Positions 8,402 through 59,585 are shown, numbered from the stretch's first letter. The stretch is 64,000 bases of DNA from an uncultured virus (IMG/VR IMGVR_UViG_3300020312_000001) (IMGVR_UViG_3300020312_000001); one strand, 5' to 3'. Made by a program: numbers and translations. The notes: generated by a model from the sequence alone, not told the origin.

Positions 8402-9199
8402 ATGGCATTTAAACTTAGATCAGGAAATAATACTAGTTTTAAAGCGATGGGGAGTTCTTCTCCTACGTTTCTTAAAAAGCACGCATCTCCTTTTTATAAA
8501 GACAAAGATGACAAAGAAAAGGATAAACCAGAAAAACCTGATAAGCCTGAGAAAGCTGAAAATAGAGAAAAAGTTGAGAAGGTAAAAGATGAGAAGGTTG
8601 AGAATGTTGAAGCAAGTGACACAAAAGAGGAATTACCAATAGGTGTTGGTTTACCGCAAGAAGAAGTTGCAGTTGAGGGACCACAGCTACCACCTGAGGT
8701 TGATAGTGAAAAAGAGATTGATACTGATGCTGCAGCTCAAAAAGAGATTGACGATCAAAAAGCTCAAAAAGAGATTGATGATCAAATAGCTAAAGAAGAT
8801 TTAGAGCATCTAGTCGAAGACACTAAGGAAGCAGGCAAACATTTAGCTAAAAATGCAACTAAAGTTGTGGGCGCTAATAAAGTTGGTACTGTTATAGAGA
8901 GAACAGCCAACTTACAGTCCGATCTACAAAATAAAGCTTTAGACACTTTATCAAAAATAAAAAACGTGAATCCAAATAGCACTTTAGGTAAAGTAGCTAA
9001 GTTTGGAAAAAACGTAGCGAGATTTGGTAAGTATGGATTAAGATTCGCTCCTATAGTTGGTCAAGCCATGTTAGCTTATGACGCTATAAAATTAGGACAT
9101 AAGATGTATAAAGATAGAGATAAGATAGCATCTTATTTAAAAAACAAAACAAACAATATCTCTAATAGCTTAGAAGAATTTGGAGATAATGTTACTTAG
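8402..9199 (+). CDS. MAFK-leader protein with charged low-complexity middle and amphipathic C-terminus
   Basis: Starts MAFKLRSGNNTSFKAMGSSSP; 27-bp tandem duplication at 8734-8787. Confidence 0.75.
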   Translation: MAFKLRSGNNTSFKAMGSSSPTFLKKHASPFYKDKDDKEKDKPEKPDKPEKAENREKVEKVKDEKVENVEASDTKEELPIGVGLPQEEVAVEGPQLPPEVDSEKEIDTDAAAQKEIDDQKAQKEIDDQIAKEDLEHLVEDTKEAGKHLAKNATKVVGANKVGTVIERTANLQSDLQNKALDTLSKIKNVNPNSTLGKVAKFGKNVARFGKYGLRFAPIVGQAMLAYDAIKLGHKMYKDRDKIASYLKNKTNNISNSLEEFGDNVT

Positions 9200-9248
9200 G
9201 GAAAATCCCTAAACCAATTAACAATAACCAATTAAACAAAAAACCAAT

Positions 9249-9542
9249 ATGACTTATTTTTATTATAAGAGTACCGCGAGTACTACAGAACCAAAAATTT
9301 CAGATAAAACAATAGCAGAATGGAAACATTTAGCTTCTAAAAAGAACTGGAGAATTACACAACTACCTAACGGGTATTATCAAACAGAAGTAAATAAACC
9401 TAGTAATAGTGAAGAATGGGTGGATGTAACGAGAAGAGAAACACTAGAAGGTGCAGAAGCTGCTGTAGAAAGTAGCGTTGAGCATTTTGCTAAAAAGCTA
9501 GAATATATCAAAGGCCCTAAAGTGGTAAAAACTTTTAAATAA
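9249..9542 (+). CDS. phage hypothetical protein
   Basis: 97-aa ORF preceded by an A-rich leader. Confidence 0.75.
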   Translation: MTYFYYKSTASTTEPKISDKTIAEWKHLASKKNWRITQLPNGYYQTEVNKPSNSEEWVDVTRRETLEGAEAAVESSVEHFAKKLEYIKGPKVVKTFK

Positions 9543-9543
9543 T

Positions 9544-9918
9544 ATGGCATTTAAATTAGGATCGGGAAACAGAGATTATAACTTACCTTGGAAGAAAAAG
9601 TCTATACTTAGAAAGAATGACTTAGAAGACGGGGTGTTAGCCGAGGCTAATAACGATGGAACCATATACGTAGATAGTAATATTCCTAAAGATAGCGATC
9701 TATATAATAGAGTAATCAAACATGAAATGAAACACATGGAAGACATGGAAAGTGGAAGAGCTGATTACGGTGATGATTGGGTTGAGTGGGAAGGTAATAT
9801 CTATTTTAGAAGAGAAGTTGATGGTGAAAAAATGATCGATGGTCCAGCAGGTAGATTACCTGAGGGCCATCCAGATCACCCATGGGAACAATCCGCAATA
9901 AAAGCAGAAAAAGAATAA
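9544..9918 (+). CDS. MAFK-leader protein with HExxH zinc metallopeptidase-like motif
   Basis: Starts MAFKLGSGN; contains 'GTIYVD...VIKHEMKH...PWEQSA'. Confidence 0.7.
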   Translation: MAFKLGSGNRDYNLPWKKKSILRKNDLEDGVLAEANNDGTIYVDSNIPKDSDLYNRVIKHEMKHMEDMESGRADYGDDWVEWEGNIYFRREVDGEKMIDGPAGRLPEGHPDHPWEQSAIKAEKE

Positions 9919-9920
9919 TT

Positions 9921-10253
9921 ATGGCATTTAAAATGAAATCGGGCAATAGCCCTTTATTTAAAGATATGGGTAGTAAAGAAAAGGAAGGTCCTTTATATAT
10001 GAAAGAGGATAGTCCACTTCAATTTTTTGATATGATAAAGAGTAGTTGGGATGCGGCTAAAGGTCACATGAGAGCGTTGAGAAAAGGGGAGAAGCCTGGA
10101 GACCTTGAAAACCAAGAAGATTGTGATTGTGGAGAAAGCCCGTCTTCTGGTGAAGAAAACACTATGATTGGAAGAGCGAAGGAAAAAGCTAAAGCACTGT
10201 TTGGTGGAGAGCATTGGAAGAAAATAAAAGAAGATGAATCAAAAACAGAGTAA
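9921..10253 (+). CDS. MAFK-leader protein (start revised to 9921)
   Basis: MAFKMKSGNSPLFKDMGS begins just after the stop of the previous gene. Confidence 0.7.
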   Translation: MAFKMKSGNSPLFKDMGSKEKEGPLYMKEDSPLQFFDMIKSSWDAAKGHMRALRKGEKPGDLENQEDCDCGESPSSGEENTMIGRAKEKAKALFGGEHWKKIKEDESKTE

Positions 10254-10255
10254 TC

Positions 10256-10510
10256 ATGGCGTTTAAAATGAAAGGATACAGTGGGTTTAAAAAACACACT
10301 AAAGGACATAATGATGGAGACGATGTTAAAATGACTCCAGAAGAAGAAAAAGCTCATAGAGAGAAAGTTCTTGAATACAACAAGAACACAGCTAAACCCA
10401 TGAGTGATATTCAAAAAAACAAAATAAAAGAACAGTTGAGCAAAATGGATCCAGATGATCCTGAAGCTAAACTATTGCAAGATATGCTTAACTTGCCTAA
10501 AAATAAGTAA
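10256..10510 (+). CDS. MAFK-leader protein
   Basis: Starts MAFKMKGYSGFKK. Confidence 0.7.
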   Translation: MAFKMKGYSGFKKHTKGHNDGDDVKMTPEEEKAHREKVLEYNKNTAKPMSDIQKNKIKEQLSKMDPDDPEAKLLQDMLNLPKNK

Positions 10511-10557
10511 TTGTAGGTAATAATACCTATAGACAATTTAATTTAATAAAATAAAAT

Positions 10558-18011: not shown

Positions 18012-18231
18012 AGAATTAATTAAGGTAGCTAGAGAAGAAATAGTTGATTCAGATGAAGATATATCAGCTGATAGATTAAAGAATGCTGCAGCTACAAAAA
18101 AGTTAGCTATATTTGATGCATTTGAAATATTAAATAGAATCCACGAGGAAGAAGCAATGCTTGAAGGAAAACCAATAGAAGAAGAAAAAAAGACAGCTTT
18201 TAAAGGGTTCGCGGAAGGTAGATCAAGATGA
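17956..18231 (+). CDS. putative terminase small subunit
   Basis: Helical 91-aa ORF directly upstream of and overlapping terL; call is positional. Confidence 0.45.
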   Translation: MNIKETKKNIIQAGHKAVEELIKVAREEIVDSDEDISADRLKNAAATKKLAIFDAFEILNRIHEEEAMLEGKPIEEEKKTAFKGFAEGRSR

Positions 18232-20465
18232 GTTATAAACAAACTTTATATAAGGTTGTAGAGCCAATAAATACAAACACTATTAAAAGACTTAATAAAT
18301 CTAAAAAGTGGAAGTATGGCTATAATAAAGAAAATAACATTGTAGTTATATCTAAAACTGGAATGATAGGTGAGATATTAGAAATACAAGGTTTTCAAAT
18401 AGCTTTACCTAAAGAACCTAAAGAAGTTTATTCTTACAGCAAAACGAAATCAGAACAAAAATGGAGACAATTCCCTATTAACCCTGATTTCAAAAGAATT
18501 AAAACAGTATTTGATTGGCAAGAATATCCAGATGATTTTAAAGAAAAACATTATGGATATATAGATGAAGAGTTTAAAAGAAGAGAAGAAGGTTTTTGGT
18601 TTATGAATAACGGTAAACCAACCTATATTACCGGAACACACTACATGTATCTACAGTGGAGTAAGATAGATGTAGGTGCGCCAGATTATAGAGAAGCTAA
18701 TAGATTGTTCTTTATATTTTGGGAAGCTTGTAAAGCGGATAAAAGATGCTATGGAATGTGTTATTTGAAAAATAGACGTTCTGGTTTTTCTTTTATGAGT
18801 TCAGCTGAAACTGTTAATCAAGCAACTATATCAAGTGATAGTAGATTTGGGATACTTTCTAAAACAGGTGCCGATGCTAAAAAGATGTTTACGGATAAAG
18901 TGGTACCAATTAGTTTAAACTACCCATTCTTCTTTAAACCGATACAGGACGGTATGGACCGACCAAAGTCCGAACTCGCTTACAGGGTGCCTGCTAAAAA
19001 GTTTACACGTAGAAAAATGGGTGTACACGAAGAGCAAGATGACATGGAGGGATTAGATACTACTATTGACTGGAAAAATACAGGTGATAATAGTTATGAT
19101 GGTGAAAAACTCTCTCTATTAGTACATGATGAAAGTGGTAAGTGGGAAAGACCTGATAATATAAAAAATAACTGGAGAGTTACAAAAACTTGTTTACGAT
19201 TAGGTAGTAGGATTATAGGTAAGTGTATGATGGGAAGCACATCAAATGCTTTAGACAAAGGAGGAGATAATTTTAAAAATTTATATTATAATTCAGATGT
19301 CACAAAAAGAAATCGTAATGGACAAACTAAGTCGGGACTATATTCTTTGTTTATTCCTATGGAATGGAATTACGAAGGATTCATTGATGAATTCGGACAA
19401 CCCGTATTCAATACTCCGAAAGAACAAACATTTGATCCACATGGAGTAGAAATAGATTATGGCGTTATAAATCATTGGGACAACGAAGCTGATGGTTTAA
19501 AAGATGATCAAGATGCTTTAAATGAATTTTATCGTCAGTTTCCTAGAACCGAGGAACATGCGTTTAGGGATGAGACTGGTAATAGTTTATTTAACCTTGT
19601 TAAAATATATGAACAAATAGATTTTAATGATGGTAATAGAAATACATCAGTTTTAACAAAAGGTAATTTTCAATGGTTAAGTGGAGTTAAAGACACTAGT
19701 GTTACTTTTAATCCAGATCCTAATGGAAGATTTAATATTAGTTGGATACCAAACTCAAATATGCAAAATAAAATCATTGTGAAAAACGGAACTAAGCACC
19801 CGGGTAATGCACATATGGGAGCGTTTGGCTGTGACTCATACGATATATCAGGAACGGTGGATGGTAGAGGATCAAAAGGAGCTTTACATGGATTAACTAA
19901 GTTTTCTATGGAAGATGCTCCAGCTAATACATTCTTTTTAGAATATATAGCAAGGCCGCAAACGGCTGATATATTTTTTGAAGATGTACTAATGGCATTA
20001 GTATTTTATGGTATGCCATTATTAGCAGAGAATAATAAACCTAGACTTTTATATTATCTTAGAAGAAGAGGGTATAGAGGTTTTAGTATGAATAGACCGG
20101 ATAAGGTTTGGAACAAATTGTCAATTGCTGAAAAGGAAGTTGGAGGAATACCAAACACAAGTGAGGATATTAAACAAGCTCATGCGGCAGCAATTGAAAT
20201 GTATATTAACGATCATGTTGGGTTAACGGAAGAGGGTGTTTATGGGAATATGTATTTTAACTCTACTTTAAATGATTGGGCCAAATTTGATATAACAAAA
20301 AGAACAAAGTATGATGCTTCAATAAGTTCTGGTTTAGCAATAATGGCTTGCAATAGACATTTGTATAGATCAAATCCAGATAGAGAAAAAACACCATTAA
20401 ACCTTAATATATCAAAATATAATAATCAAGGATTTTCATCAAGAATAATAAAACAACAAACATGA
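18228..20465 (+). CDS. terL: terminase large subunit
   Basis: Walker A-like KNRRSGFS, Walker B LLVHDESGK, motif III MGST, nuclease GAFGCDSYD...YDASISSGLA; lies upstream of the portal. Confidence 0.92.
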   Translation: MSYKQTLYKVVEPINTNTIKRLNKSKKWKYGYNKENNIVVISKTGMIGEILEIQGFQIALPKEPKEVYSYSKTKSEQKWRQFPINPDFKRIKTVFDWQEYPDDFKEKHYGYIDEEFKRREEGFWFMNNGKPTYITGTHYMYLQWSKIDVGAPDYREANRLFFIFWEACKADKRCYGMCYLKNRRSGFSFMSSAETVNQATISSDSRFGILSKTGADAKKMFTDKVVPISLNYPFFFKPIQDGMDRPKSELAYRVPAKKFTRRKMGVHEEQDDMEGLDTTIDWKNTGDNSYDGEKLSLLVHDESGKWERPDNIKNNWRVTKTCLRLGSRIIGKCMMGSTSNALDKGGDNFKNLYYNSDVTKRNRNGQTKSGLYSLFIPMEWNYEGFIDEFGQPVFNTPKEQTFDPHGVEIDYGVINHWDNEADGLKDDQDALNEFYRQFPRTEEHAFRDETGNSLFNLVKIYEQIDFNDGNRNTSVLTKGNFQWLSGVKDTSVTFNPDPNGRFNISWIPNSNMQNKIIVKNGTKHPGNAHMGAFGCDSYDISGTVDGRGSKGALHGLTKFSMEDAPANTFFLEYIARPQTADIFFEDVLMALVFYGMPLLAENNKPRLLYYLRRRGYRGFSMNRPDKVWNKLSIAEKEVGGIPNTSEDIKQAHAAAIEMYINDHVGLTEEGVYGNMYFNSTLNDWAKFDITKRTKYDASISSGLAIMACNRHLYRSNPDREKTPLNLNISKYNNQGFSSRIIKQQT

Positions 20466-22849: not shown

Positions 22850-22878
22850 CAATTTTTAATATTTTATAAAATTTTATT

Positions 22879-24042
22879 ATGGCAGAAGAAAAAGAAAACA
22901 AAGTCGAAGAGACTAAGGTTGAGGAACCTAAAAATCCAACTGTAACAAAAGTTGATTTAAAGCAAAAAGCTAAAGATCTAACTAGTAATGTAACTAAAGT
23001 TGATTTAAACAATCCACCAAAATCATCTGAAGAGGAAGTGGAGGAATCTAAAGAAGATGATGTTATTGTTGTTAACGAAGAACCTAAAGAAACTGAGGAG
23101 GTTATTGAGGAGAAAACTGAAGAAAAAGAAGAAACCCCAGTTATTCAAGAGGTTACAGACGAGGAGGTAGTTAAAGTTGATATTCCCAAAGTTGAAACAG
23201 AAACACCTTATAAGTTACCAGAGAAATTACAGAAAGTTGCTGACTTTATGAAAGAGACAGGAGGTGATCTCAACGACTATGTAAAATTAAACAGAGATAT
23301 ATCCAACATGGACGACTCTGATGTTTTAGATGAATATTATAAAGAAACTAAATCTCATTTAACACCAGAAGAAAGAAGTTTTCTACTAGAAGATAACTTT
23401 GGTTTTGACGAAGAAGTTGACGACGCAAAGGATATACGTAAAAAGAAAATAGCCCTCAAAGAGCAGGTTGCCGAGGCTAGAGCCCACTTAGACAGGCAAA
23501 AGTCTAAATACTATGAAGATATTAAAGCTGGAGGTGATCTAACGGAAGATCAAAAGAAGGCAATTGATTTCTTTAATAGATACAACAAGGAGAATGAACA
23601 ACAGAAGAGTATAGCAAATAAAAGTAAAGAGGCATTTTTAAAGAAAACTGACGATGTTTTTAATGAAGATTTCAAAGGTTTTGATTATCAAATTGGAGAC
23701 AAAAAGTTCAGATTCAATGTTAAAGATGTAGAAAACACCAAAACTACCCAAAGTGATATTAATAATTTCGTTAATAAGTTTGTTGACGATGATAATATTA
23801 CGATAAAGGACGCTAAGGGTTATCATAAATCTTTATTTACAGCTATGAACGCTGATGCTATTGCTAAGCATTTTTATGAGCAAGGTAAATCCGATGCGAT
23901 TAAAGATACTATAGCTAACGATAAGAATATAGATATGAATCCACGTCAAACACACGGCGAGGTTAGTGTTGATGGTATTAAAGTTAAAGCGTTAGGCGAT
24001 TCTGCTAGTGATTTCAAATTTAAAATTAGAAAGAAAAAATAA
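22879..24042 (+). CDS. putative capsid scaffolding protein
   Basis: Highly acidic N-terminus and helical body; immediately upstream of the major capsid gene. Confidence 0.65.
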   Translation: MAEEKENKVEETKVEEPKNPTVTKVDLKQKAKDLTSNVTKVDLNNPPKSSEEEVEESKEDDVIVVNEEPKETEEVIEEKTEEKEETPVIQEVTDEEVVKVDIPKVETETPYKLPEKLQKVADFMKETGGDLNDYVKLNRDISNMDDSDVLDEYYKETKSHLTPEERSFLLEDNFGFDEEVDDAKDIRKKKIALKEQVAEARAHLDRQKSKYYEDIKAGGDLTEDQKKAIDFFNRYNKENEQQKSIANKSKEAFLKKTDDVFNEDFKGFDYQIGDKKFRFNVKDVENTKTTQSDINNFVNKFVDDDNITIKDAKGYHKSLFTAMNADAIAKHFYEQGKSDAIKDTIANDKNIDMNPRQTHGEVSVDGIKVKALGDSASDFKFKIRKKK

Positions 24043-24061
24043 CTTAAAAAAAATTTAAATT

Positions 24062-48700: not shown

Positions 48701-51700
48701 TAATGAGTTTTTAAGTGTTGAAGGCGTTAAGTCTATTAGAAATGAAGTCTCAAATGGGTTTGCACAAATGGGAAAAGACATGGGTATTGTTGATGCCACT
48801 AGAATGTATTTAACACACGGTGTTAACGCTTTTACTGGCTCTGGTAAAACTGGAGATGGACGTATAATAAATGACAAAAACGGTGACCCTATAGTAGATC
48901 CAAATTGGGAGGATAGAGGTGATATACCTGGTAACAAATGGAAAAGATGGGATTCTAAGTCTATTAGTAAAGCTCCTAAAGGAACTAAGGTTGGAGACTT
49001 AAAGTTAAACTCTAAAGGACAGAGAATACTAAAAGACAATAGGTATAAACCATTTGCAACTATAGAAGATTATATTAAGCACTTAAATAAGGTAGCTGGA
49101 TCTTTTGGTATCAACAATCAAGAACTAATCAGAAAATCAAAAGAAAAGGGTTTTACATATGAGGTTTGGGACGGTAAAAAATACATCCCTGTGAAAACGA
49201 ATATGTTAAAGGAAAGTAATAGTGAAGCCTTGAAAGACGTTGGTAATAAAGAAAGACAAAAACAAAGAGCTAGGGAATCAGCTGAAGCTAGAGAGTTTAG
49301 TAAATGGCATATAGAAAGAGCGTTTAATAATCCTAACGTTAGTGATTCATCACTTGGTGCTATAATGATGAACTTAGGTTCTGGTATGAACTCACCAATG
49401 AGAAAGGCAGCGCAATTAACTATGGTTGTTAAAAACGCTGAGCAAATAATAGATTGGCATAAAAAGAATATTGCTAAGATTAGAAAACTATTTGGCTCAT
49501 CAGTACCAGCGTTAAGATATGAGCACTCAGAATCTAAGGCTGTTATAAACAATAGAATATTAGAGTCTCTAATGCAAACATCTAAAGATGGTGGACCTGG
49601 TTTTATAGCTGACAATGTTTGGGAAGGATATGAAGTATTTGTGATTCCCGGTGTTTGGGATCACGCTCAGAATTTAGCTAACTTTAAAACGAAATCAGCT
49701 AAAGAGGGTGAGCTTAGAGCTACTTCAATGGAGACAATAGCTGAACTAATAAACATGGTACAACAACTAGGACCACAATCAGCAGTCAACATAAGTGGTT
49801 TCAATAGTGTTGAAGTTCAAACAAATGTAGCTAAAGAAAAGAAGATACAAAGTGCTGTTGACGTTGCTGCTAAAATCTTAAAACTAAAACCAGTTAGTCA
49901 AGTATCTCAAGATGTTGCCATAGAAACAGGTCGTTTAGTTAGACAGTTAAATAGTAAGTTAGCGTCTGATAGTAAGTCTATGGATAAATCTGAAGGTATG
50001 TCCGTATTTGACTTTGATGAAACATTGATAATAGATGGTAAAAACGTAGTGGTAGCAACAAACCCTAAAACAAAAGAAACAGAAGTAATAAGCTCTGAAG
50101 ATTGGCCAACAAGAGGAACAGAATTAATGGAGTTGGGTTGGAGCATGAACTTTGATGATTTTATAAACGTAAGAGGCGGTGTTAAAGGACCATTGTTTAA
50201 AAAACTTTTAAATAGAATAAAAAAATATGGACCTGATAATAATTTTATATTAACAGCTAGACCTCAAGAATCTGCTGTAGCTATTCACGGCTGGTTAAAA
50301 TCTAAAGGAGTTAACATACCTTTAAACAATATAACTGGATTAGGTAATAGTACTGGTGACGCTAAAGCTCAGTGGATATTAAATAAGTATAAAGAAGGTT
50401 ATAACGATGTTTATTTTGTAGATGATGCAATGCAGAACGTTGATGCTGTTAAGCACGTTATGGATCAGTTAGACATAAAAGGTAGTTCTGTCCAAGCTAA
50501 AGTAGATTTTAATAAAAATGTAGACGCTGAGTTTAATCAAATACTAGCAGATACTAGTAAGATGGATCCTTTAAAAAGAGTTACAGCTCAAGAAGCTGCT
50601 ATGCTAGGTAAGAAAAAGGGTGGTTCACTTTTAAAGAACTTTTTTATTCCACCATCCGCTGAAGATTTCAAAGGTTTACTTTATAGGTTTTTAGCTAAAG
50701 GAAAAAAGGGAGACCAACATATGGAATTTTTTAAGAAAAATTTACTAGACCCTTACTCTAAAGCATATACCAATTGGAACTCATATAAACAAAACATGTC
50801 CAACGAATATAGTACTTTGAAGAAGAGTTTTCCTAATGTAGTTAAGTCAATGAAGGATATTGTTCCGGGTACAAACCTAACTAATGACCACGCTATTAGA
50901 GCTTATCTATGGAACAAAGGTGGTTTAGAAGTACCTGGTTTATCTGATGCTCAAAAGCAAGTTTTAGTAGATCATGTTAGTAACAATCCTGAACTCTCTG
51001 GTTTTGCTGATAACCTAAGTAAAATAACTAGATTAGAAGAAGGATATATAAGACCAGATGAAAATTGGACCGTTAAAAATATTGCACGTGACTTAAACGA
51101 TATAGTTAAAAACGTTGGTAGAAAACAATTTTTTGAAGAATGGAAAAACAATAAAGATCAAATATTTTCAAAAGAAAATTTAAATAAAATAGAAGCTATA
51201 CATGGAACAAACTTCAGGCAAGAGTTGGAGAAAATGTTGTATAGAATGGAGACAGGTAGTAATAGGGTTACGGGTAAAAATAGACACGTTAATCGTTTTA
51301 TGGACTGGATAAACGGTTCTGTTGGCGCAGTGATGTTTTTTAATATGAGATCAGCGAGTCTTCAAACTATATCTATGGCTAATTTTATTAACTGGAAAGA
51401 TAACAATATATTTGCTGCGTCAAAAGCTTTTGCTAATCAACCACAATTTTGGAAAGACTTTGCTATGATATTCAACTCTCCAATGTTAAAACAAAGAAGA
51501 GCTGGTATGCAAATAGATGTTAACGCTAATGAATTAATGGAGGCTTTTTCTGAAGGCAAAAGTAAACCAGAGGCTGTTATAAAATGGATGTTAGAAAAAG
51601 GATTCTTACCAACTCAAATGGCTGATAGTTTTGCTATTGCAATGGGTGGTGCTCCATTTTATAGAAATAGACTAGATAAGTATATAAAGGAGGGTAAACA

Positions 51701-52847
51701 CCCCGAGCAAGCAGCTCAAGATGCTTGGAGTGATTTTCAAGAAATTGCTGAGGAAACACAGCAGTCGTCTAGACCTGATTTAATATCTAATCAACAAGCT
51801 GGACCATTAGGTAGATTAATACTAGCTTGGCAAAATACTCCAATGCAGATGACTAGATTAACTAAGAAAGCTATATCAGACTTAGTTAATGGTAGAGGTG
51901 ATCCAAAACAACATATATCAAGAATAATGTACTATGGTCTTATTCAGAACTTAATATTTGGAACACTACAAACAGGATTAGGATTCTTACTATTTGGTGA
52001 TGATGAGGAAGATGAGAAAAGAAAGAAGATGTCAACTGAAAGAGTTTTAAACGGAGCTTTAGATACTCTACTTAGAGGTACTGGTGTTTATGGAGCAGCT
52101 ATATCTACAGTTAAAAATACTATAATGGAGTTTTATGAGCAAAGAAGAAAAGGTTGGGGAGCTGATCACGGTTACACTGTTATAGAAGCTATAAATTTAT
52201 CACCACCTATTGGTAGTAAACTGCGTAAAGTTTACAAAGCTATACAAGCTGACAAATGGAATAGAGGGGTTGGTAAGAAATTAGGTTTTAGAGTTGAAAG
52301 TCCAGGTGCTGTTATTGCTGCAAATATTATAGAAGCATTAACAAATGCACCTGTTGCTAGATTACTTAACAAAGCTAATCACATAGAAGAAGCTTTAACT
52401 GGTAACCATGAGATGTGGCAGAGAATGGCTTTACTAGGTGGATGGGACATGTGGTCTGTTGGAGTTAAAGACGAAGAGGTAGAGCAAGCTAAAGCAGATA
52501 TAAAGCGAGAAAAGAAAGAACAAAAAGAACTTGAAAAAATACAGAAGAAAAAAGAAAAAGAAGAACAAAAGAAAATAGAAGAACAGAAAGAGAAAGAAAG
52601 AAAAGAAAAAGAGGGTATAAAAACAGTTCGGTGTTCTGGTACAAATTCCAGCGGCAGAAGATGTGGTTTAACAACTGAAACAAAAAAGAAAACCTGGAAA
52701 TGTCCTCACCACGCTGAGTTTAAAGATGGTAGTGATACAGATGGGGACGGTATAAAAGAATATAGATGTACAGCTGTGAAATCAAACGGTAAGCGCTGTA
52801 AGAACAAAACTGAGAATAAGAACAAGAAATGTTATGCTCACCAATAA
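42744..52847 (+). CDS. giant multidomain virion/ejected protein (3367 aa) with zincin HExxH, HAD-like and Cys3His motifs
   Basis: GAHEFVHAAF; SVFDFDETL...ILTARP...K...YFVDD; C-terminal tandem C-x9-C-x10/12-C-x2-H. Confidence 0.8.
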   Translation: MSKIYMIDGQPHEVSEEKEKSFLETNKDSNPVLSHVKAGNTYVNMETGVLETPDWSDQVTIGPMPEEHYSGNQQSSTEGATVEQNTTAQNQNESSVSNLEDGSSVLQNNQQANFTGPLQEDGTQGEGHRSTSELALEEDISNARATVSQDSDGDGITDVNENSINRVNDYYKDTLYNETEAPGLQEQYDQAYDQQMQDFLWGEQRKSTVSKIGYDKFDSMSVGSKAGVPKKKTAARDIQTDVDQIYNKTIQDVAVQDYIKNLTSEFLPDGKTKNPNYDPNFDISDLSPEDKRKFINSIIEQDDNGEFINQKFPEFLNKAKEEATDVRNRRVELNQKLEKGEINQEQYDEELKLLNGYTDDEGNVINPEDRFHANFENSLFHADKQSELRKQLNIELEEGKETHRQKKKHKKEQLETAEKLLTDKQREIQMNIDSQAQLNEKQEKLLSSVKTDHAWLISEKEGEGVWTRNRLEELQNTKIEGDPAILDKIKTLSETPVEGDQAILSQIEKIANGTYTTQEQVDAAKAKIEALQEEYRVSAEANLKNVNDQITALAQEYDSQVKEKAAIAQKEYTDLYNNYTGKQKNINDAQKQAQEWDALSATLNDEFKALDLDIQDLSVYAQQSRKYRKTFGASAMASTISGFAKNFGDFGEMLFDVKDNFLDKHIKDPNIRKAVDVMTYMLPGGLQIAMGDLMFNTKDKEEGALFDLRDKDGKAQSLWDIAGGAWEETQYKYLDQYHEDPVDFDDVYKSWEDGEPNWANTMEWGLTTAITQIPVVATLAATSAMGCPMCGLGVLSANSMGNKYNQLQEEVELSKKTGGVYGNRYSFGQMVLNSTIHGGVEGALEYFTAGIIGKTMGSFLKQPMKESAKLGFNSFTRKAIFTPKNAAYAFGESLEETFAEGGTAVGQNLADIFILGKKDVGVWDNVLESSISGFGMGTMFQSPRLLAHARRPFSTSDSNQQIGEMANKMSEISDEITRLRNTNNPENLKKIERLEQQYVELTNRTAQIMEYDIKRVDALSNEQKAELVEMERRTLQDRVEAEKIRSDDSLTKEERAEKLDNLKKNVDARNAKKEEILNSIEPKVVHDNYDRINTFIQKNVDLANKMGPVKTTFRRVNAKEFEKRSIKGEGLDSKAELENIVSKSKGISDAMDEIINDPNSSPEEIADAKRIKKENSVADNIRIGEDMLMSKNNFGTMIPQIKDGKLVGMEILINEDTALENGEFTVGAHEFVHAAFRNTLGGDPVARVAMGKQIDKIINDKDVEFASKTARKKYNERLKLYDGNIQGEEKLAFLSEMVLNEDVKFKNDGPINKIKGLLRRFSQNVLGFPIKFDNKNDVVNFLKDYKKAYDTNSASPAIAKMLQKGANGEIFNDPRSLKQRNAEQAFSRAVDLNRQQNPDLKREFDQFILNSDGKPKYKSHQEFKDSPDYSGALLTLLEGRAHDGLIMQGMTDAGVQPDQMREFVQNVKQELARRFQGGLNKDSSDKIEQIEEQIKKKEISIKEGVRQIEAIKNNRDNYLAEFNYDIVKDDKVSLFGWLTGSYKAIHWAKEDVKKAWVRSRPGFGGPSLDQQISTEEGSATLKDRVGGVQDATIESIDEMDLSFGRKSALKEIVREGTVKDVLGFDGDTRSAIESSINDADVSIKDMKYKDVKRLLDDVTMLTKVDKKTGKPQVHKTGKRKGQVKLFRPTSSMKTTPEGAAFGVLNAVSAEFGIDPLRILANQDLDGQQRTDAQNYIFEKSVNDDGSFNKTLLDILPEGEDRSGWATGVANTDLGDFYTKGERVRVGEGAAKEGGQKAEQIKRKRITKQEFLNKFGINQDGTFKKGTSADGAIRQLVLQVAQTAANQQLREKALSRGELKEAIVAKLGDGKSEQMWSKAPVVNREAAIEDVADNVNQNTQKGEVEGIVNGVVDAWTEKGVSKKNKEVNDLKKFLLDTIDKFIFRKKILKSNYNVTLKEDVKNRDAQLTDEAADKSLKEKLNLDTPPGNEFLSVEGVKSIRNEVSNGFAQMGKDMGIVDATRMYLTHGVNAFTGSGKTGDGRIINDKNGDPIVDPNWEDRGDIPGNKWKRWDSKSISKAPKGTKVGDLKLNSKGQRILKDNRYKPFATIEDYIKHLNKVAGSFGINNQELIRKSKEKGFTYEVWDGKKYIPVKTNMLKESNSEALKDVGNKERQKQRARESAEAREFSKWHIERAFNNPNVSDSSLGAIMMNLGSGMNSPMRKAAQLTMVVKNAEQIIDWHKKNIAKIRKLFGSSVPALRYEHSESKAVINNRILESLMQTSKDGGPGFIADNVWEGYEVFVIPGVWDHAQNLANFKTKSAKEGELRATSMETIAELINMVQQLGPQSAVNISGFNSVEVQTNVAKEKKIQSAVDVAAKILKLKPVSQVSQDVAIETGRLVRQLNSKLASDSKSMDKSEGMSVFDFDETLIIDGKNVVVATNPKTKETEVISSEDWPTRGTELMELGWSMNFDDFINVRGGVKGPLFKKLLNRIKKYGPDNNFILTARPQESAVAIHGWLKSKGVNIPLNNITGLGNSTGDAKAQWILNKYKEGYNDVYFVDDAMQNVDAVKHVMDQLDIKGSSVQAKVDFNKNVDAEFNQILADTSKMDPLKRVTAQEAAMLGKKKGGSLLKNFFIPPSAEDFKGLLYRFLAKGKKGDQHMEFFKKNLLDPYSKAYTNWNSYKQNMSNEYSTLKKSFPNVVKSMKDIVPGTNLTNDHAIRAYLWNKGGLEVPGLSDAQKQVLVDHVSNNPELSGFADNLSKITRLEEGYIRPDENWTVKNIARDLNDIVKNVGRKQFFEEWKNNKDQIFSKENLNKIEAIHGTNFRQELEKMLYRMETGSNRVTGKNRHVNRFMDWINGSVGAVMFFNMRSASLQTISMANFINWKDNNIFAASKAFANQPQFWKDFAMIFNSPMLKQRRAGMQIDVNANELMEAFSEGKSKPEAVIKWMLEKGFLPTQMADSFAIAMGGAPFYRNRLDKYIKEGKHPEQAAQDAWSDFQEIAEETQQSSRPDLISNQQAGPLGRLILAWQNTPMQMTRLTKKAISDLVNGRGDPKQHISRIMYYGLIQNLIFGTLQTGLGFLLFGDDEEDEKRKKMSTERVLNGALDTLLRGTGVYGAAISTVKNTIMEFYEQRRKGWGADHGYTVIEAINLSPPIGSKLRKVYKAIQADKWNRGVGKKLGFRVESPGAVIAANIIEALTNAPVARLLNKANHIEEALTGNHEMWQRMALLGGWDMWSVGVKDEEVEQAKADIKREKKEQKELEKIQKKKEKEEQKKIEEQKEKERKEKEGIKTVRCSGTNSSGRRCGLTTETKKKTWKCPHHAEFKDGSDTDGDGIKEYRCTAVKSNGKRCKNKTENKNKKCYAHQ

Positions 52848-55393: not shown

Positions 55394-55801
55394 ATGGCAG
55401 GATTTAAACTACCAAAAGATCTAGAGGTAATAGCAAACGAACACGGCTTAAGCAAAGGTGAGGTTGAACAGTTTGCAAATAAACACAATGTAACTGGTTT
55501 AACCAGAGGTGGAGGCGCCCCAACAAAAGCTTCTAGCCCTGATGATATGATGGCACAAGCTTACGCTAGTAACACAGCTGTTACATCAGATAGAAGATTT
55601 TATGCTGATAAAAAAGACGCAGCGGCTGATAGGAAGGAAAGAAAAATACATGGCGAAGGGGGTTTGATGGACAAGCTTCATGCAGCAGAACCAGGATCTG
55701 GTAGAGCTAAGAGATTAGAAAATAGAATAGCTAGAAAACAAGGTGCTATTGATAGAAAAAGAAAAAAAGCAAAAAACATAAGAACAGGACCACATTATTA
55801 A
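55394..55801 (+). CDS. basic hypothetical protein (MAGFKL leader variant)
   Basis: 135 aa with a K/R-rich C-terminus. Confidence 0.65.
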   Translation: MAGFKLPKDLEVIANEHGLSKGEVEQFANKHNVTGLTRGGGAPTKASSPDDMMAQAYASNTAVTSDRRFYADKKDAAADRKERKIHGEGGLMDKLHAAEPGSGRAKRLENRIARKQGAIDRKRKKAKNIRTGPHY

Positions 55802-55819
55802 AAATTAAAAAAATAAGAT

Positions 55820-56011: not shown

Positions 56012-56015
56012 TAAA

Positions 56016-57071: not shown

Positions 57072-57073
57072 TT

Positions 57074-57454
57074 ATGCCGTTTAAAATGAGAGGCTTTACG
57101 CCATATAAATTAACAGACGAAGATGAGAATACATCTGGAATACAAGTAGACTCTAAAGACAAAGATAAAGAGTTTACAAAAGAAAACTTACCTTATTATG
57201 ATGAAGTATCTGCCGTTCAAGTGGGTGATGATGGAGGTAAGTTTGTTCACACTATAACAGATGATGAATATTACGACCCCAATGAACCTAATTTTGTGGG
57301 CGATTTTCAACCAGGTATAAAAAGAGATACTATACATGTTCAAGAAAGATACCCTGAGGGCCATTTAATAGATGAAACGGAATGGGAAGAAGGCGAAGCT
57401 TTAAAGAACGCTGAAATAGAAGATAAAGAGTTTAGAGATAAAATAAAAGAATAA
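57074..57454 (+). CDS. MPFK-leader acidic protein
   Basis: Starts MPFKMRGFTPYK. Confidence 0.7.
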   Translation: MPFKMRGFTPYKLTDEDENTSGIQVDSKDKDKEFTKENLPYYDEVSAVQVGDDGGKFVHTITDDEYYDPNEPNFVGDFQPGIKRDTIHVQERYPEGHLIDETEWEEGEALKNAEIEDKEFRDKIKE

Positions 57455-58134
57455 TGAAAAAATATATTATAATACTATTTGCGTTTATTGGCTCGTTCGT
57501 TAATGCGCAAGGATACGACTTTCAACAGTTATGTTTAAACTGTGCAGAACAAAATGGTTTTTATTGTGGAGATGATCCAGCAAACTGGACGCAGTATTCA
57601 CCAGAGGGGTGTGTGCCAAATGGTGCTGGTGGATTAGAATACTTAAATGATGGATGGGAAGATTGCGTAGATGGCTCAGATGAGAATGGAGCTGTACCAA
57701 CCACAGCTGCGGATTGCGGTCCAGTTGGTCCTGGTCCCTGTGATACTGTTTTTGTTGAGATACCAATTATACAATATGAATATATATTTGACACAATCGT
57801 TGAATATGAGACCGTTGTTGAATACGACACAATCGTTGAGACTGAATACGTATATAACGTTGATACGGTTTATGCTGACGTCTTAGATACAATGTTTATT
57901 GATGTTATTGAGTATGTTGAGATATTCGTTGTAGACACTGTAATAGAAATACAATATGAAGAAATTGTAGAATATATCGATTGTGATTCAGGTTTACCTT
58001 GTAATTCAAGCATTATGGAAATAGTGGATAAATCAAAACAAAACTCTGTAATATATAATATTAAAGGGCAAGCAATTTTAACAAGAGAAGGATTGTACAT
58101 AGAGAACGGAAAAATTTATTATAAAACTAAATAG
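57454..58134 (+). CDS. secreted protein with LDL-receptor class A-like motif, DT-V repeats and T9SS-like C-terminal signal
   Basis: Signal peptide ..VNA/Q; 'LNDGWEDCVDGSDE'; DTIVEY repeats; C-terminal 'IYNIKGQ.....GLYIENGKIYYK'. Confidence 0.7.
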   Translation: MKKYIIILFAFIGSFVNAQGYDFQQLCLNCAEQNGFYCGDDPANWTQYSPEGCVPNGAGGLEYLNDGWEDCVDGSDENGAVPTTAADCGPVGPGPCDTVFVEIPIIQYEYIFDTIVEYETVVEYDTIVETEYVYNVDTVYADVLDTMFIDVIEYVEIFVVDTVIEIQYEEIVEYIDCDSGLPCNSSIMEIVDKSKQNSVIYNIKGQAILTREGLYIENGKIYYKTK

Positions 58135-58136
58135 TT

Positions 58137-58667
58137 ATGGCATTCAAAATGAAGGGTTTTAGCCCATTTACAAAGAAAACAGGAAATCCTGATTTAGAAC
58201 AAGGATTAGGTAATGATGAGGATATGAGAGAATATCTGGAAAGAAAAGAAAAAGAAAAAGCTGGCGCGGCTAAAACACCACCGCCGCGTGAAAAGGAAGA
58301 GTTCAAAGAGCCAGAGGTAGAGGAGAATCCTGAAGAAGAAACTAAACCTAAAAGCTCAAGATGGGAAGAAAGAGCTGATGTGGAAGAAAAAACTAAAGAT
58401 GAGGAAGATGATGATTTACCTTTTAAAATGAGCGTGTCGTTTAGTAGTCCATTTACAAAAACAAAAGATGATCCAGTTGATAAAAATTGGAAAGAAAATC
58501 AAAGTATAATGGATGACTTAAAATCTCTTAAAGAGGATTTAAGGGACGCTAAAACTCCAGAAGAAAAAAGAAAAATTCAAATGGACATAGAGCAAACTCA
58601 GAAGATAATCGACAAGGGTTACGAAGAGAGTAGTCAACTAAACCCTAATAATCCAGATAGAGACTAA
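58137..58667 (+). CDS. MAFK-leader protein with a second internal leader copy
   Basis: MAFKMKGFSPFTK at the N-terminus and PFKMSVSFSSPFTK internally. Confidence 0.75.
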   Translation: MAFKMKGFSPFTKKTGNPDLEQGLGNDEDMREYLERKEKEKAGAAKTPPPREKEEFKEPEVEENPEEETKPKSSRWEERADVEEKTKDEEDDDLPFKMSVSFSSPFTKTKDDPVDKNWKENQSIMDDLKSLKEDLRDAKTPEEKRKIQMDIEQTQKIIDKGYEESSQLNPNNPDRD

Positions 58668-59011
58668 TGGCAAAAGAATTATCAGAAGATAGTAAGTTTA
58701 ATATAAGTATTAAAACTTTAATCAGTATAGTTGTAGCTGTTGCTACTGTTATATCAGCTTATTTTGGTTTAATGAGCACTATTAATTCTAAGTTTGGAGA
58801 ACTAGAACTCAAAGTTAATGAAGCTTTAGAATTACCAAAGCCTGGAACAGGTATATATACAATTGATATGGGTGATCCAGCGGCTACTAATACTTGGCCT
58901 CCAACTAGAATGGAGTTTAATATGAAAGATCAAATGGCTCGTAATCAAATAGACATGTTGATTAAAGAGATAGAGGAAATTAATGAAGAAATTAAACTAT
59001 TAAGAAAATGA
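58667..59011 (+). CDS. single-pass membrane protein with coiled-coil
   Basis: Transmembrane segment 'LISIVVAVATVISAYFGL' and C-terminal heptads. Confidence 0.7.
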   Translation: MAKELSEDSKFNISIKTLISIVVAVATVISAYFGLMSTINSKFGELELKVNEALELPKPGTGIYTIDMGDPAATNTWPPTRMEFNMKDQMARNQIDMLIKEIEEINEEIKLLRK

Positions 59012-59406
59012 TAAAACAAATAGATATATCAAACTATCTCTACGTGTTAATAATGCTACTTGCTTTTGGTTGCGGAACAGCTATAGGGCAAGAGTTTATA
59101 AATGGTGATTTTGAAGATCGCATAGCTAAAGATGTTGTGGCTGTAGAGTTTTGGGCTGACTGGAACTCTGCTAATCAATTTAATGACTTAGCTAAATTAA
59201 AAGAGTGTGAAAAATATAGATTAGATATTATGGCGAATTCTGACACTCAAGCCAAGTATAACGTATCTGCTATACCCACTGTTATTATATTTGATAATGG
59301 TGTAGAAAAAGAAAGGTTTAACGCTAATATTATGTTTCAATTAGAAGCTGATAAAAAAACTATACAGAATTCTATTGACACAATAATACTAAATAAATTT
59401 CAATAA
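59008..59406 (+). CDS. exported thioredoxin-fold protein lacking CxxC
   Basis: Hydrophobic N-terminus; 'VAVEFWADWNSAN' where WCxxC would be; cis-Pro loop 'YNVSAIPTVIIFDNG'. Confidence 0.75.
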   Translation: MIKQIDISNYLYVLIMLLAFGCGTAIGQEFINGDFEDRIAKDVVAVEFWADWNSANQFNDLAKLKECEKYRLDIMANSDTQAKYNVSAIPTVIIFDNGVEKERFNANIMFQLEADKKTIQNSIDTIILNKFQ

Positions 59407-59408
59407 TT

Positions 59409-59585
59409 ATGAGTAGTCCATTTCAAAAATCATTTTCATCTAAATCACCAATGAAAAACGACAGTTGGTGGTCTAAGATTAAAAAACAATTTACTCCAAC
59501 AGATTATTCTAGTTCTTCTAACGTGAAACGTAACGTAAAAACAAAAGTGAACGAATCTGGAATGCCTTCTAGAAGAGGTAAATAA
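59409..59585 (+). CDS. small basic protein (58 aa, SPF leader variant)
   Basis: Manual translation MSSPFQKSFSSKSPMKNDSWWSKIKKQF...SRRGK*. Confidence 0.55.
   Translation: MSSPFQKSFSSKSPMKNDSWWSKIKKQFTPTDYSSSSNVKRNVKTKVNESGMPSRRGK

What the first reader, a model, noticed from the sequence alone, without database searches (positions are those of the whole stretch)
8402..59585. Unrelated proteins share an N-terminal 'MAFK(M/L)x-G...SP(F/L)' leader: possible capsid-targeting address tag
Seen: 8402 MAFKLRSGNNTSFKAMGSSSP, 9544 MAFKLGSGN, 9921 MAFKMKSGNSPLFKDMGS, 10256 MAFKMKGYSGF, 57074 MPFKMRGFTPY and 58137 MAFKMKGFSPFTK (with internal PFKMSVSFSSPFTK). Variants occur at 39134 (GFKLRS...TTFKSIGSSDAPSPL), 55394 (MAGFKL), 40475 (MSQQGSPF) and 59409 (MSSPFQKSFSSKSPM). 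The bodies after the leader are unrelated, mostly charged low-complexity, and one has HExxH. The codons vary, so the conservation is at protein level. All lie in the late block. Known analogy: T4 internal proteins share a short N-terminal capsid-targeting sequence that is later cleaved. Inference: a modular tag that loads variable cargo into the head or marks it for proteolysis, i.e. a cargo-delivery system.
Basis: partly seen in the sequence, partly recalled or inferred. Interest (0 to 1): 0.8.

Follow-up and report, generated by a model that had tools for sequence, protein, structure and literature searches.

The report
Shared N-terminal tag on phage proteins
An abundant, uncultured group of marine phages starts many unrelated small proteins with the same short peptide, which most likely works as an address tag that loads them into the virus particle, although no experiment has tested this.

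Summary
Six late-block ORFs start M-[A/P]-F-K-[L/M]-[K/R/G]-[S/G]; 0.0015 are expected by chance. A seventh carries the motif at residue 9, and one has an internal copy.

The conservation is at protein level, since position 5 is CTA, ATG, TTA or CTT. The tag extends to about residue 11 and is often followed by S-P-hydrophobic.

It is widespread in IMG/VR: at least 139 stretches and 86 unrelated bodies among 181 ORFs. None of 74 pattern matches in cellular genomes resembles it.

The constant bearer is a ~125-aa HExxH mini-zincin (window 9544-9918). In 34 of the best 150 family representatives this domain is instead the C-terminal domain of a 1,262-2,725-aa homologue of the window's 3,367-aa giant, a presumed internal virion protein.

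- Eight genomes with a free zincin all put the leader or a close variant on it.
- Three genomes with the fused form, and one with no zincin, have no leader ORF.

I read the leader as a docking or virion-loading tag that replaced a covalent link and was then copied onto variable cargo (confidence 0.45). No T4-type cleavage site or head protease was found. The scan noted T4-type leaders in other phages before, but not this motif.

The parts
8402..9199 (+). Leader protein, 265 aa, MAFKLRSG...SFKAMGSSSP...; charged low-complexity body
   Evidence: No Pfam or PHROG family. No homologue in five related genomes.
9544..9918 (+). Leader-bearing mini-zincin, 124 aa, MAFKLGSG..., HEMKH at residues 60-64. 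This is the constant bearer of the leader.
   Evidence: Alignment A2 has invariant M1 F3 K4 H60 E61 H64 W114 E115. AF2 model pLDDT 82, with residues 1-4 and 7-18 under pLDDT 50. Best structural neighbours are zincins: PprI Z 6.1, SprT, abylysin, selecase, CapP, and SprT-like viral proteins. 110 of 120 close homologues start M[APGS]FK[LMI].
9921..10253 (+). Leader protein, 110 aa, MAFKMKSGNSPLFKDMGS...
   Evidence: The start at 9921 lies 3 nt after the stop of the zincin gene. No homologue in related genomes.
10256..10510 (+). Leader protein, 84 aa, MAFKMKGYSGFKK...
39134..40456 (+). 440-aa accessory protein with the motif at residue 9 (GFKLRSAQGG...TTFKSIGSS), placed just before the ejection-protein module
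   Evidence: No orthologue in G001, G002 or G004 at this position.
55394..55801 (+). Possible variant leader (MAGFKLPKD), 135 aa; uncertain
   Evidence: The MAGFKLGS form exists in one zincin homologue.
57074..57454 (+). Leader protein, 126 aa, MPFKMRGFTPYK..., acidic
   Evidence: It lies in a variable slot between conserved genes 56016-57071 and 58667-59011. G004 has unrelated leader ORFs in the same neighbourhood.
58137..58667 (+). Leader protein, 176 aa, MAFKMKGFSPFTKK..., with a second internal copy LPFKMSVSFSSPFTK at nt 58419
59409..59585 (+). 58-aa protein with two S-P-hydrophobic elements (MSSPFQKSFSSKSPMK) but no FK core; doubtful member
   Evidence: The S-P-hydrophobic element is enriched about 10-fold in residues 8-40 of leader proteins.
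42744..52847 (+). Giant 3,367-aa protein, presumed internal virion or ejection protein. It is a homologue of giants that carry the mini-zincin as their C-terminal domain. Here it ends in a Cys-rich tail instead.
   Evidence: blastp hits 34 of 34 zincin-bearing giants, E 1e-30 to 1e-169; window residues ~2550-3270 align to the part just before their zincin. Weak tblastn match inside phi38:1 gp101, annotated 'structural protein'.
40475..41431 (+). Context, not a leader protein: 318-aa protein of the ejection-protein module
   Evidence: PHROG 6121 'virion structural protein' 4.6e-15 and PHROG 4287 'DNA ejection protein' 4.9e-8. Orthologues lack any leader.
18228..25558 (+). Context: large terminase (18228-20465), portal (20462-22849), scaffold-like protein (22879-24042), major capsid protein (24062-25558)
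   Evidence: PHROG hits. MCP is 34-45% identical to Cellulophaga, Flavobacterium and Maribacter podophages.

Best explanation
The leader is a short, disordered, protein-level docking peptide. Its consensus is M-[A/G/S/P]-F-K-[L/M]-[K/G/R]-[G/S/K]-[F/S/M/W]-[P/S]-hydrophobic, and it is often followed by S-P-hydrophobic-x-K.

Proposed history:
1. It arose on a mini-zincin (HExxH) protein in lineages where that domain is not the C-terminal domain of the giant internal virion (ejection) protein.
2. It now joins the free zincin non-covalently to the virion interior, most likely to the giant or ejection-protein assembly.
3. Once such a docking site existed, the ~11-residue tag was copied onto many unrelated small, charged proteins in variable gene slots. 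Each phage therefore packs and delivers its own set of cargo.

Shown here:
- the motif and its statistics;
- protein-level conservation;
- its restriction to viral contigs, mainly of one phage clade;
- modularity;
- the fused/free alternation of the zincin and its link with leader presence.

Inferred: that the giant is inside the virion, that the leader binds it or another virion part, and that tagged proteins are packaged.
For: 1. Non-chance and N-terminal. In 1,586 mechanical ORFs of the clade the 6-residue core occurs 43 times against 1.2 expected. Of these, 36 are at residue 2, 6 at residues 3-30 and 1 later.

2. Protein level. Position 5 is CTA 19, ATG 18, TTA 8, CTT 5, ATA 1. Position 2 is Ala, Gly, Ser or Pro through 9 codons. 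Residues 8-11, which the search pattern did not fix, still carry 1.2-1.9 bits each.

3. Modular. 181 complete leader ORFs fall into 86 body clusters, 69 of them singletons. One of 81 representatives scanned has a Pfam family. Leader genes sit in variable slots between conserved genes.

4. Domain fusion. Of the best 150 zincin-family representatives, 34 are giants of 1,262-2,725 aa with the zincin at the C-terminus and none of them has a leader. Of the 69 small forms, 41 start with the leader. All 34 giants are homologues of the window's giant. The giants of the window, G001, G002 and G004 end without the domain.

5. Phyletic pattern. Eight of 8 genomes with a free zincin have the leader or a conservative variant on it (MAFKLG, MAFKMKG, MSFKLK, MGFRLK, MGYQMK). 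Zero of 3 fused genomes (83-98% complete) and 0 of 1 zincin-less genome have any leader ORF. Around giants, 0 of 13 fused loci hold a leader ORF. Ten of 52 unfused loci do, each 190-737 nt downstream of the giant on the same strand. Fused forms lie in two separate places on the giant's tree (labels corrected).

6. Precedent. Giant internal virion proteins of podoviruses host cargo domains (PMC4819975, abstract and passages read). T4 loads diverse internal proteins through a shared N-terminal sequence (PMC3012670, passages read).

7. The leader is predicted to be disordered (residues 1-4 and 7-18 under pLDDT 50), as expected of a docking peptide.
Against: - No cultured relative carries the leader, so no virion proteome exists and no tagged protein has been seen in a particle.
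- That the giant is a virion protein rests on synteny, size and a weak match to phi38:1 gp101 'structural protein' (26% identity over 10% of the query).
- The fused/free contrast amounts to about two independent comparisons on a quick tree with uncertain rooting. Shared ancestry could explain much of the correlation.
- The linkers of fused giants hold no leader-like motif.
- The presumed core ejection proteins (40475, 41424, the giant) have no leader.
- About half of the window's leader genes lie at the far end of the late block, among signal-peptide, membrane and thioredoxin-like genes rather than head genes.
- In G011 and G014 the zincin N-terminus is only a variant (MGFRLK, MGYQMK) and no other leader ORF exists.
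Confidence: 0.45

Rival explanations
1. The leader is a recognition or cleavage tag for the mini-zincin itself. The protease carries the same peptide as its substrates, as a pro-peptide or self-cleavage site, and processes or regulates the tagged proteins. This could hold together with virion loading, as in T4, where the targeting sequence is also cut off.
For: - The zincin is the only protease-like late gene found.
- It is the constant bearer of the leader.
- Leader ORFs were found only in genomes that have a free zincin.
- Solved minimal zincins among the structural neighbours, abylysin and selecase, are deposited as zymogens.
Against: - In the AF2 model the leader is disordered and not docked in the cleft.
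- No conserved cut-site-like position follows the leader. Information falls to background after about residue 13.
- Fused genomes keep the zincin but have no leader anywhere, so the enzyme does not need the motif.
- Catalytic activity is untested.
Confidence: 0.2
2. The leader is a host-directed short linear motif. It could be an N-terminal degron for a host AAA+ protease (ClpXP-type N-motif), or a peptide that binds one host hub protein. In that case it sets the lifetime or the target of many small phage effectors and has nothing to do with packaging.
For: - The peptide is N-terminal, disordered, alternates hydrophobic and basic residues, and is portable.
- ClpX is known to read three classes of N-terminal degrons, including that of phage lambda O (PMC12723719, abstract and passages read).
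- The likeness of A-F-K-[L/M] to the N-motif-1 consensus is recalled by me and was not checked in any call.
Against: - The motif also works 1-13 residues in from the N-terminus and once internally, which a strict N-end signal would not allow.
- The idea does not explain why the tag tracks the free or fused state of the zincin.
- It does not explain why late-operon genes carry it.
- No host is known, so nothing could be tested.
Confidence: 0.12
3. The conservation is a nucleotide-level or translation-start feature. It could be an optimal initiation region or early-elongation ramp in a host without Shine-Dalgarno pairing, or a short homology box that lets gene cassettes recombine.
For: - Synonymous sites lean to A/T more than in the bodies. 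Lys4 is AAA 48 and AAG 3, against 600 and 196 in the bodies. Ala2 is mostly GCA, while the bodies prefer GCT.
- Leader genes start 2-3 nt after the upstream stop, so coupling matters.
- Cassettes do swap at these places.
Against: - The substitutions are conservative amino-acid changes made through unrelated codons: Leu CTA/TTA/CTT against Met ATG, Ala/Gly/Ser/Pro, and F to Y and K to R/Q in variants.
- Conservation continues to residues 8-11 and to an S-P-hydrophobic element at variable distance.
- The motif also occurs away from the start codon.
- The most abundant late proteins (capsid, scaffold, portal) lack it.
Confidence: 0.05

Closest known systems
Capsid targeting sequence (CTS) of phage T4 internal proteins IPI-III and Alt (PMC3012670, passages read)
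   Same: A short N-terminal peptide is the only thing shared by a diverse, fast-changing set of small proteins encoded in variable loci. In T4 it loads them into the prohead core for injection.
   Different: - There is no sequence likeness.
- There is no [LI]xE cut site: 18 of 181 leaders against 44 of 173 control stretches.
- The phage is a podovirus-type phage with no detectable T4-type or other prohead protease.
- The tag is tied to a zincin that alternates between free and fused to the giant.
- Packaging is not shown.
Cargo domains hosted by giant internal virion proteins of podoviruses: IVP-C/IVP-D of T7, N4 gp50 with its virion RNA polymerase, phiKMV lysozyme domain (PMC4819975, abstract and passages read)
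   Same: A very large protein at the end of the structural module carries an enzyme domain at one end for delivery into the cell. Here 34 giants carry the mini-zincin C-terminally.
   Different: In the window's lineage the domain is a separate gene with a leader, and the same leader sits on many other proteins. Homology of the window's giant to IVP-D was not shown: no Pfam or PHROG hit.
Encapsulin cargo-loading peptides (recalled, no call)
   Same: A short terminal peptide docks unrelated cargo to the inside of an HK97-fold shell.
   Different: They are usually C-terminal, with a different consensus, in a bacterial compartment rather than a phage. No shell binding is indicated here.
Minimal zincin / SprT-like / IrrE-ImmA-like metallopeptidases
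   Same: - HExxH on a helix after a small beta-sheet.
- Best structural neighbours are PprI (Z 6.1), an ImmA-like regulator, SprT, abylysin, selecase and CapP.
- 'SprT-like' viral proteins match in BFVD.
- Weak Pfam hits to M90, M91, DUF6782, eCIS_core and SprT-like.
   Different: All scores are below family thresholds: Pfam is below cut-off and Foldseek on PDB finds nothing at E <= 0.001. The protein has only ~105 structured residues. Substrate and activity are unknown.
ClpX N-terminal degrons (N-motifs 1-3; PMC12723719, passages read)
   Same: Short, unstructured N-terminal signals that are portable between proteins, one of them from a phage protein.
   Different: The consensus comparison rests on recall only. 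The motif here tolerates an internal position and tracks a virion-protein fusion.

Membership tests
T4-type capsid targeting sequence system | Short N-terminal peptide shared by otherwise unrelated proteins | tested here: met
   86 body clusters among 181 leader ORFs. 36 of 43 motif hits are at residue 2.
T4-type capsid targeting sequence system | Leader ends in a prohead-protease site ([L/I]-x-E; consensus recalled) | tested here: not met
   [LI]xE occurs in residues 6-25 of 18 of 181 leaders, against 44 of 173 control stretches.
T4-type capsid targeting sequence system | A prohead maturation protease encoded with the head genes | tested here: not met
   No protease family among the late-block proteins in Pfam or PHROGs. 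Only the mini-zincin is protease-like.
T4-type capsid targeting sequence system | Tagged proteins are packaged into the head and processed | not testable with these tools
   No cultured relative with the leader was found. Virion mass spectrometry is needed.
Zincin metallopeptidases (HExxH) | HExxH motif invariant across the family | tested here: met
   H60, E61 and H64 are invariant in 26 sequences.
Zincin metallopeptidases (HExxH) | Zincin fold | tested here: inconclusive
   The VIA-align top hits are zincins but Z is at most 6.1. Foldseek on PDB has no hit at E <= 0.001. BFVD gives 2 hits at E <= 0.001, both to unnamed viral proteins, and SprT-like proteins just above that (2.4e-3, 6.5e-3).
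Zincin metallopeptidases (HExxH) | Membership of a curated Pfam peptidase family | tested here: not met
   The window protein has 0 families. The best hit among 26 members is M90 at 6.2e-5; all others are weaker, and cut-offs are not reported in this output.
Podovirus internal virion (ejection) protein with cargo domain | Very large protein at the end of the structural module, after small ejection-type proteins | tested here: met
   Gene order 40475 (PHROG 'DNA ejection protein' / 'virion structural protein'), 41424, 42744-52847. The order is the same in G001, G002 and G004.
Podovirus internal virion (ejection) protein with cargo domain | Sequence homology to T7 IVP-D or another proven virion protein | tested here: inconclusive
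   Only a weak tblastn match inside phi38:1 gp101 'structural protein' (E 3e-12, 10% of the query). No Pfam or PHROG family.
Podovirus internal virion (ejection) protein with cargo domain | Enzyme domain fused to the giant | tested here: met
   This holds in relatives, not in the window. 34 of the best 150 family representatives and 13 of 65 IMG/VR giant loci have a C-terminal zincin.

The most novel reading that the evidence does not exclude
The leader is a natural plug-in adaptor for the podovirus ejection machine. An ~11-residue peptide docks any small protein onto the giant ejection protein, taking the place of a covalent C-terminal fusion. An abundant clade of marine flavobacterial phages thereby packs and injects a freely exchangeable set of effectors, including a mini-zincin protease. 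That would be a second, independently evolved and much simpler counterpart of T4's capsid-targeting system, and a ready-made protein-delivery tag.
Probability: 0.25. Interest if true: 0.85.

Novelty: new variant of a known kind. Interest (0 to 1): 0.66.

Why it matters
How tailed phages other than T4 select the small proteins they carry and inject is largely unknown. Here a clear sequence tag marks candidate cargo in a phage clade that is common in marine viromes: at least 603 terminase relatives in IMG/VR.

Nature has also run the control. Sister lineages keep the same enzyme domain fused to the giant virion protein and have no tag at all.

If the tag loads proteins into the particle, three things follow:
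- It gives a simple rule for predicting injected effectors, likely anti-defence or takeover proteins, from sequence alone.
- It gives a concrete partner to look for.
- It gives a short portable peptide for packaging foreign proteins.

If it is instead a protease or degron signal, it still defines a new regulatory peptide shared by dozens of orphan phage gene families.

Tried and rejected
- **Complex prediction.** I ran the capsid protein (A3), the scaffold-like protein residues 105-387 (A4) and 40-residue leaders (A1). The verdict was no answer, score 0.00. This is evidence neither for nor against binding.
- **Leader profile search.** The leader profile (A1) against the 5.8-billion protein set reached only proteins of 22-70 aa and gave 2 hits. 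It was uninformative.
- **Cultured phages.** megablast of 12 kb found no match. tblastn of the zincin found none. A 45-nt leader DNA query gave only chance hits, and the Limnohabitans phage match is not at a gene start. The related isolates Maribacter phage Panino and Cellulophaga phage phi38:1 have no leader ORF. Methylophilales phage Melnitz has a distant zincin without a leader.
- **Cellular genomes.** Of 74 pattern matches, 22 are an internal ...TSGMAFKMKGRVGDSPIIG of one recurring protein family in Bacteroidota assemblies. The rest are short or internal chance matches.
- **Literature.** Motif strings found nothing relevant, nor did word searches. These searches cover PMC open-access papers and bioRxiv only.
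- **Earlier notes of this scan.** None on this genome or sequence.
- **Atlas search.** The query was 58137-58664. It found only unnamed viral clusters, with scores at most 0.85.
- **A second 'FK..GS' unit as a general feature.** It is present in only 5 of 119 non-zincin leader proteins. Rejected.
- **Genes present only in leader-bearing genomes.** Two small ORF clusters turned up, on the strand opposite to the late genes in G001, and were not pursued.
- **40475 as a leader protein.** Rejected.
- **Tree labels.** My first regex labels on the tree mislabelled four fused giants (L312, L317, L369, L370). I corrected them from the hmmsearch.

Full report
**What the window is.** The + strand block 7313-59585 is the late region of a podovirus-type phage with ~34% G+C. 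PHROG profiles identify these genes:
- GroEL (10558-12126) and GroES (12113-12370);
- a second GroES-like gene (17424-18011);
- large terminase (18228-20465);
- portal (20462-22849);
- major capsid protein (24062-25558);
- several 'virion structural' proteins, including a 2,250-aa one;
- a 318-aa protein (40475-41431) that matches 'virion structural protein' and 'DNA ejection protein' families.

A 3,367-aa giant (42744-52847) follows. The capsid protein is 34-45% identical to those of Maribacter phage Panino, Flavobacterium 'elemo' phages and Cellulophaga phages phi38:1 and phi40:1, so the host is probably a member of the Flavobacteriia. No whole genome is held for the window. No close cultured relative exists in the phage collection. 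The zincin protein of the window is seen on contigs of up to 69,930 bases.

**Check of the observation.** In the six-frame translation FK[LM][KRG][SG] occurs seven times, always in real + strand late ORFs, six times directly after Met-[A/P]. From the composition of the 52 late-block proteins, 0.0015 such starts are expected and six are seen.

I then took an unbiased set: the window, 80 loci chosen only by their terminase, and three complete genomes. It holds 1,586 mechanical ORFs of 60 aa or more. The six-residue core occurs 43 times against 1.2 expected. Of these, 36 are at residue 2, six within residues 3-30 and one later.

- 40475 is not a member. Its orthologues start quite differently.
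- 59409 has only the secondary S-P-hydrophobic element.
- 55394 (MAGFKL) is possible, since one zincin homologue starts MAGFKLGS.

**Protein level, not nucleotide level.** In 51 leader ORFs not selected by any DNA pattern, position 5 is Leu through CTA (19), TTA (8) or CTT (5), Met ATG (18) or Ile (1). Position 2 is Ala, Gly, Ser or Pro through nine codons.

In 143 IMG/VR ORFs found with a pattern that fixed only residues 1-7, residues 8-11 still carry 1.2-1.9 bits each. Residue 8 is F/S/M/P/W, residue 9 is P or S in 96 of 143, residue 10 is F/M/L/Y and residue 11 is F/K/Y.

An S-P-hydrophobic element is about ten times denser in residues 8-40 than further on: 57 in 3,927 residues against 17 in 11,475.

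There is a mild excess of A-ending codons in the leader (AAA 48: AAG 3, against 600: 196 in the bodies). This is the usual 5'-end bias and does not explain the amino-acid pattern. The motif can also sit 1-13 residues in from the start, and once lies internally.

**Distribution.**
They gave 144 distinct ORF starts, often two or more per contig.
- The same pattern found 74 stretches in one genome for each of 185,579 prokaryote species. None looks like a leader ORF: 22 are an internal ...TSGMAFKMKGRVGDSPIIG of one recurring protein family, and the rest are chance.
- Of the 139 viral loci, 102 hold a homologue of a window protein within their short flanks.
- Of ten long leader-bearing contigs tested, seven encode the clade's terminase or capsid protein. 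The three that do not are 36-67% complete.
- The terminase has at least 603 relatives in IMG/VR; the best 80, which were kept, are 74-89% identical.
- The more distant isolates Panino and phi38:1 have no leader ORF.

The tag is therefore a hallmark of one abundant, uncultured clade of viral contigs.

**The tagged proteins.** 181 complete, distinct leader ORFs fall into 86 clusters by BLASTP of the bodies, 69 of them singletons.
- Median length is 120 aa.
- About 36% of residues are charged and 21% hydrophobic.
- pI is bimodal: 96 above 9 and 65 below 6.
- One of 81 cluster representatives has a Pfam family, DUF6321. The window's own proteins have none above threshold.

Leader genes sit in two hot spots. 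One is beside the zincin, GroEL and the 13891 family. The other is at the far end of the late block, beside the 56016, 57454 and 58667 families. Within conserved synteny the bodies differ between relatives. For example, the window has 57074 and 58137 where G004 has three unrelated leader ORFs. This is the pattern of exchangeable cassettes.

**The constant member is a mini-zincin.** The largest cluster (60 ORFs) is the family of window 9544-9918.
- An alignment of 26 members has invariant M1, F3, K4, H60, E61, H64, W114 and E115.
- The AlphaFold2 model has mean pLDDT 82, with residues 1-4 and 7-18 below 50, so the leader is disordered.
- An exhaustive structural comparison ranks zincins first: PprI/IrrE Z 6.1, an ImmA-like regulator, lugdulysin, SprT, abylysin, selecase and CapP.
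- BFVD gives 'SprT-like' phage proteins.
- Foldseek on the PDB gives nothing at E <= 0.001, and Pfam matches are weak.
- Each of the four genomes first examined has exactly one such gene, always with the leader. The number of further leader ORFs ranges from none (G002) to five or more (window, G004).
- Of the 120 closest homologues in the 5.8-billion protein set, 110 start M[APGS]FK[LMI] and seven more have FKLG shifted by a few residues. All are environmental, and those that carry a name are called only 'hypothetical protein'.

**The fused form.** A profile of the family against 1.84 billion representatives gave 615 hits at E <= 0.001. The best 150 divide as follows:
- 69 small proteins, 41 with the leader;
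- 47 of 200-1,000 aa, 10 with the leader;
- 34 giants of 1,262-2,725 aa, with the zincin at the very C-terminus and none with a leader.

All 34 giants are homologues of the window's 3,367-aa protein (E 1e-30 to 1e-169). Window residues ~2550-3270 align to the part just before their zincin. The giants of the window, G001, G002 and G004 end soon after that conserved region, without the domain. The linkers in the fused giants are basic and variable and hold no leader-like motif.

**Leader presence tracks the free state.**
- Five contigs with a fused zincin each have only that one copy.
- Three of them were read in full (G006 94%, G007 98% and G008 83% complete; terminase 65-68% identical to the window's, same gene order). 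They have no leader ORF at all.
- G013 is 99% complete. It has neither a zincin nor a leader ORF.
- All eight genomes with a free zincin put the leader or a conservative variant on it: MAFKLG twice, MAFKMKG twice, MSFKLK, MGFRLK twice and MGYQMK.
- Around the giants, 0 of 13 fused loci hold a leader ORF. Ten of 52 unfused loci do, each 190-737 nt downstream of the giant on the same strand.
- On a quick maximum-likelihood tree of the giant's conserved C-terminal region, fused forms lie in two separate places. One is a basal pair (L373, L375). The other is a well-supported clade (L311-L318, L369, L370) nested among unfused forms (with labels corrected).

So there are about two independent contrasts. 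That is suggestive, not proof.

**Reading.** Giant internal virion proteins of podoviruses are known to host enzyme domains meant for delivery, such as tail lysozymes and the N4 virion RNA polymerase (PMC4819975, abstract and passages read). T4 loads a diverse set of internal proteins through a shared N-terminal targeting sequence (PMC3012670, passages read).

The simplest account of the present data has two steps. First, the zincin is such a delivered domain, and where it is a separate gene the leader ties it non-covalently to the same assembly. Second, the tag then spread to other small genes, which ride along. I put this at 0.45.

The reading is weakened by several points:
- There is no virion proteome for the clade.
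- The evidence that the giant is a virion protein is thin: synteny, size and a weak match inside phi38:1 gp101 'structural protein'.
- The presumed core ejection proteins lack the tag.
- Half of the window's leader genes lie among envelope or lysis-like genes.

Rivals:
- a zincin recognition or cleavage tag (0.2, and compatible with loading);
- a host-directed degron or hub-binding motif (0.12; ClpX N-terminal degrons exist, PMC12723719, but the likeness to their consensus is only recalled);
- a start-region or recombination feature (0.05).

**Comparison with T4.** The system works like the T4 CTS in being N-terminal, portable and attached to variable cargo. It fails two defining features. There is no [LI]xE site, and no prohead protease was found. 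I therefore file it as a new variant of a known kind, not as a member of the T4 system. Earlier notes of this scan describe T4-type leaders in T4-like and jumbo phages. None concerns this motif, this genome or these proteins.

**What was not possible.** The giant's C-terminal region, which later emerged as the better candidate partner, could not be tested. No supplements were consulted.

Noticed in passing
window 10558-12370 and 17424-18011: The phage encodes its own GroEL and GroES, plus a second, longer GroES-like protein just upstream of the terminase (PHROG 5725, 3188, 13932). Relatives with and without the leader all keep them.
   Followed up: partly
window 52500-52847 (C-terminus of the 3,367-aa giant): Where relatives carry the zincin, the window's giant ends in two Cys-rich repeats (...RCSGTNSSGRRCG...KCPHH... 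and ...RCTAVKSNGKRCKNK...KCYAHQ). They look like zinc-ribbon units.
   Followed up: no
window about 46428 (residue 1229 of the giant); residues 902, 903 and 1293 in the giants of G001, G002 and G004: Each giant has one internal HExxH, at residue 902-1293. This may be a second, unrelated metallopeptidase-like domain inside the giant.
   Followed up: no
window 56016-59406: The far end of the late block looks like an envelope or lysis module. There are two proteins with signal-peptide-like N-termini (56016, 57454), a membrane protein (58667; PHROG 20984) and a lipoprotein-like thioredoxin-fold protein (59008-59406; Pfam Thioredoxin 1.4e-7). Leader genes are interleaved.
   Followed up: partly
window 54894-55391: DUF5675 protein (Pfam 2e-26; PHROG 1501). 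The mechanical ORF starts with TTG at 54873.
   Followed up: no
window 7313-7840 and 7854-8399: The first two genes of the late block have similar N-termini (MAYIKPTLTIASN.., MASIITPTLNITANN..) and no family. They are probably paralogues.
   Followed up: no
proteins P0009, P0012, P0021 and others: A subfamily of 230-660-aa proteins has the zincin at the N-terminus (MAKPITNKVK...TPVIKKDLEGG) without the leader, followed by a long basic tail. In P0009, the one tail I read, that tail contains S-P-hydrophobic-K motifs.
   Followed up: no
protein P0053 (217 aa): This zincin protein has two leaders: MAFKLSNP at the N-terminus and SPLAFKLGNNPG at residue ~91, just before the zincin. It looks like a fusion of two leader genes.
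   Followed up: no
L145, L163, L165 and 19 other loci from genome assemblies: One recurring protein family, mostly in Bacteroidota assemblies, holds an internal ...TSGMAFKMKGRVGDSPIIG.. that matches the leader's first seven residues and even an S-P-hydrophobic. It lies deep inside a long frame and is probably a coincidence.
   Followed up: partly
G013 (contig of L332): A 99%-complete genome of the same group has neither a free nor a fused zincin and no leader ORF, so the zincin is dispensable.
   Followed up: partly
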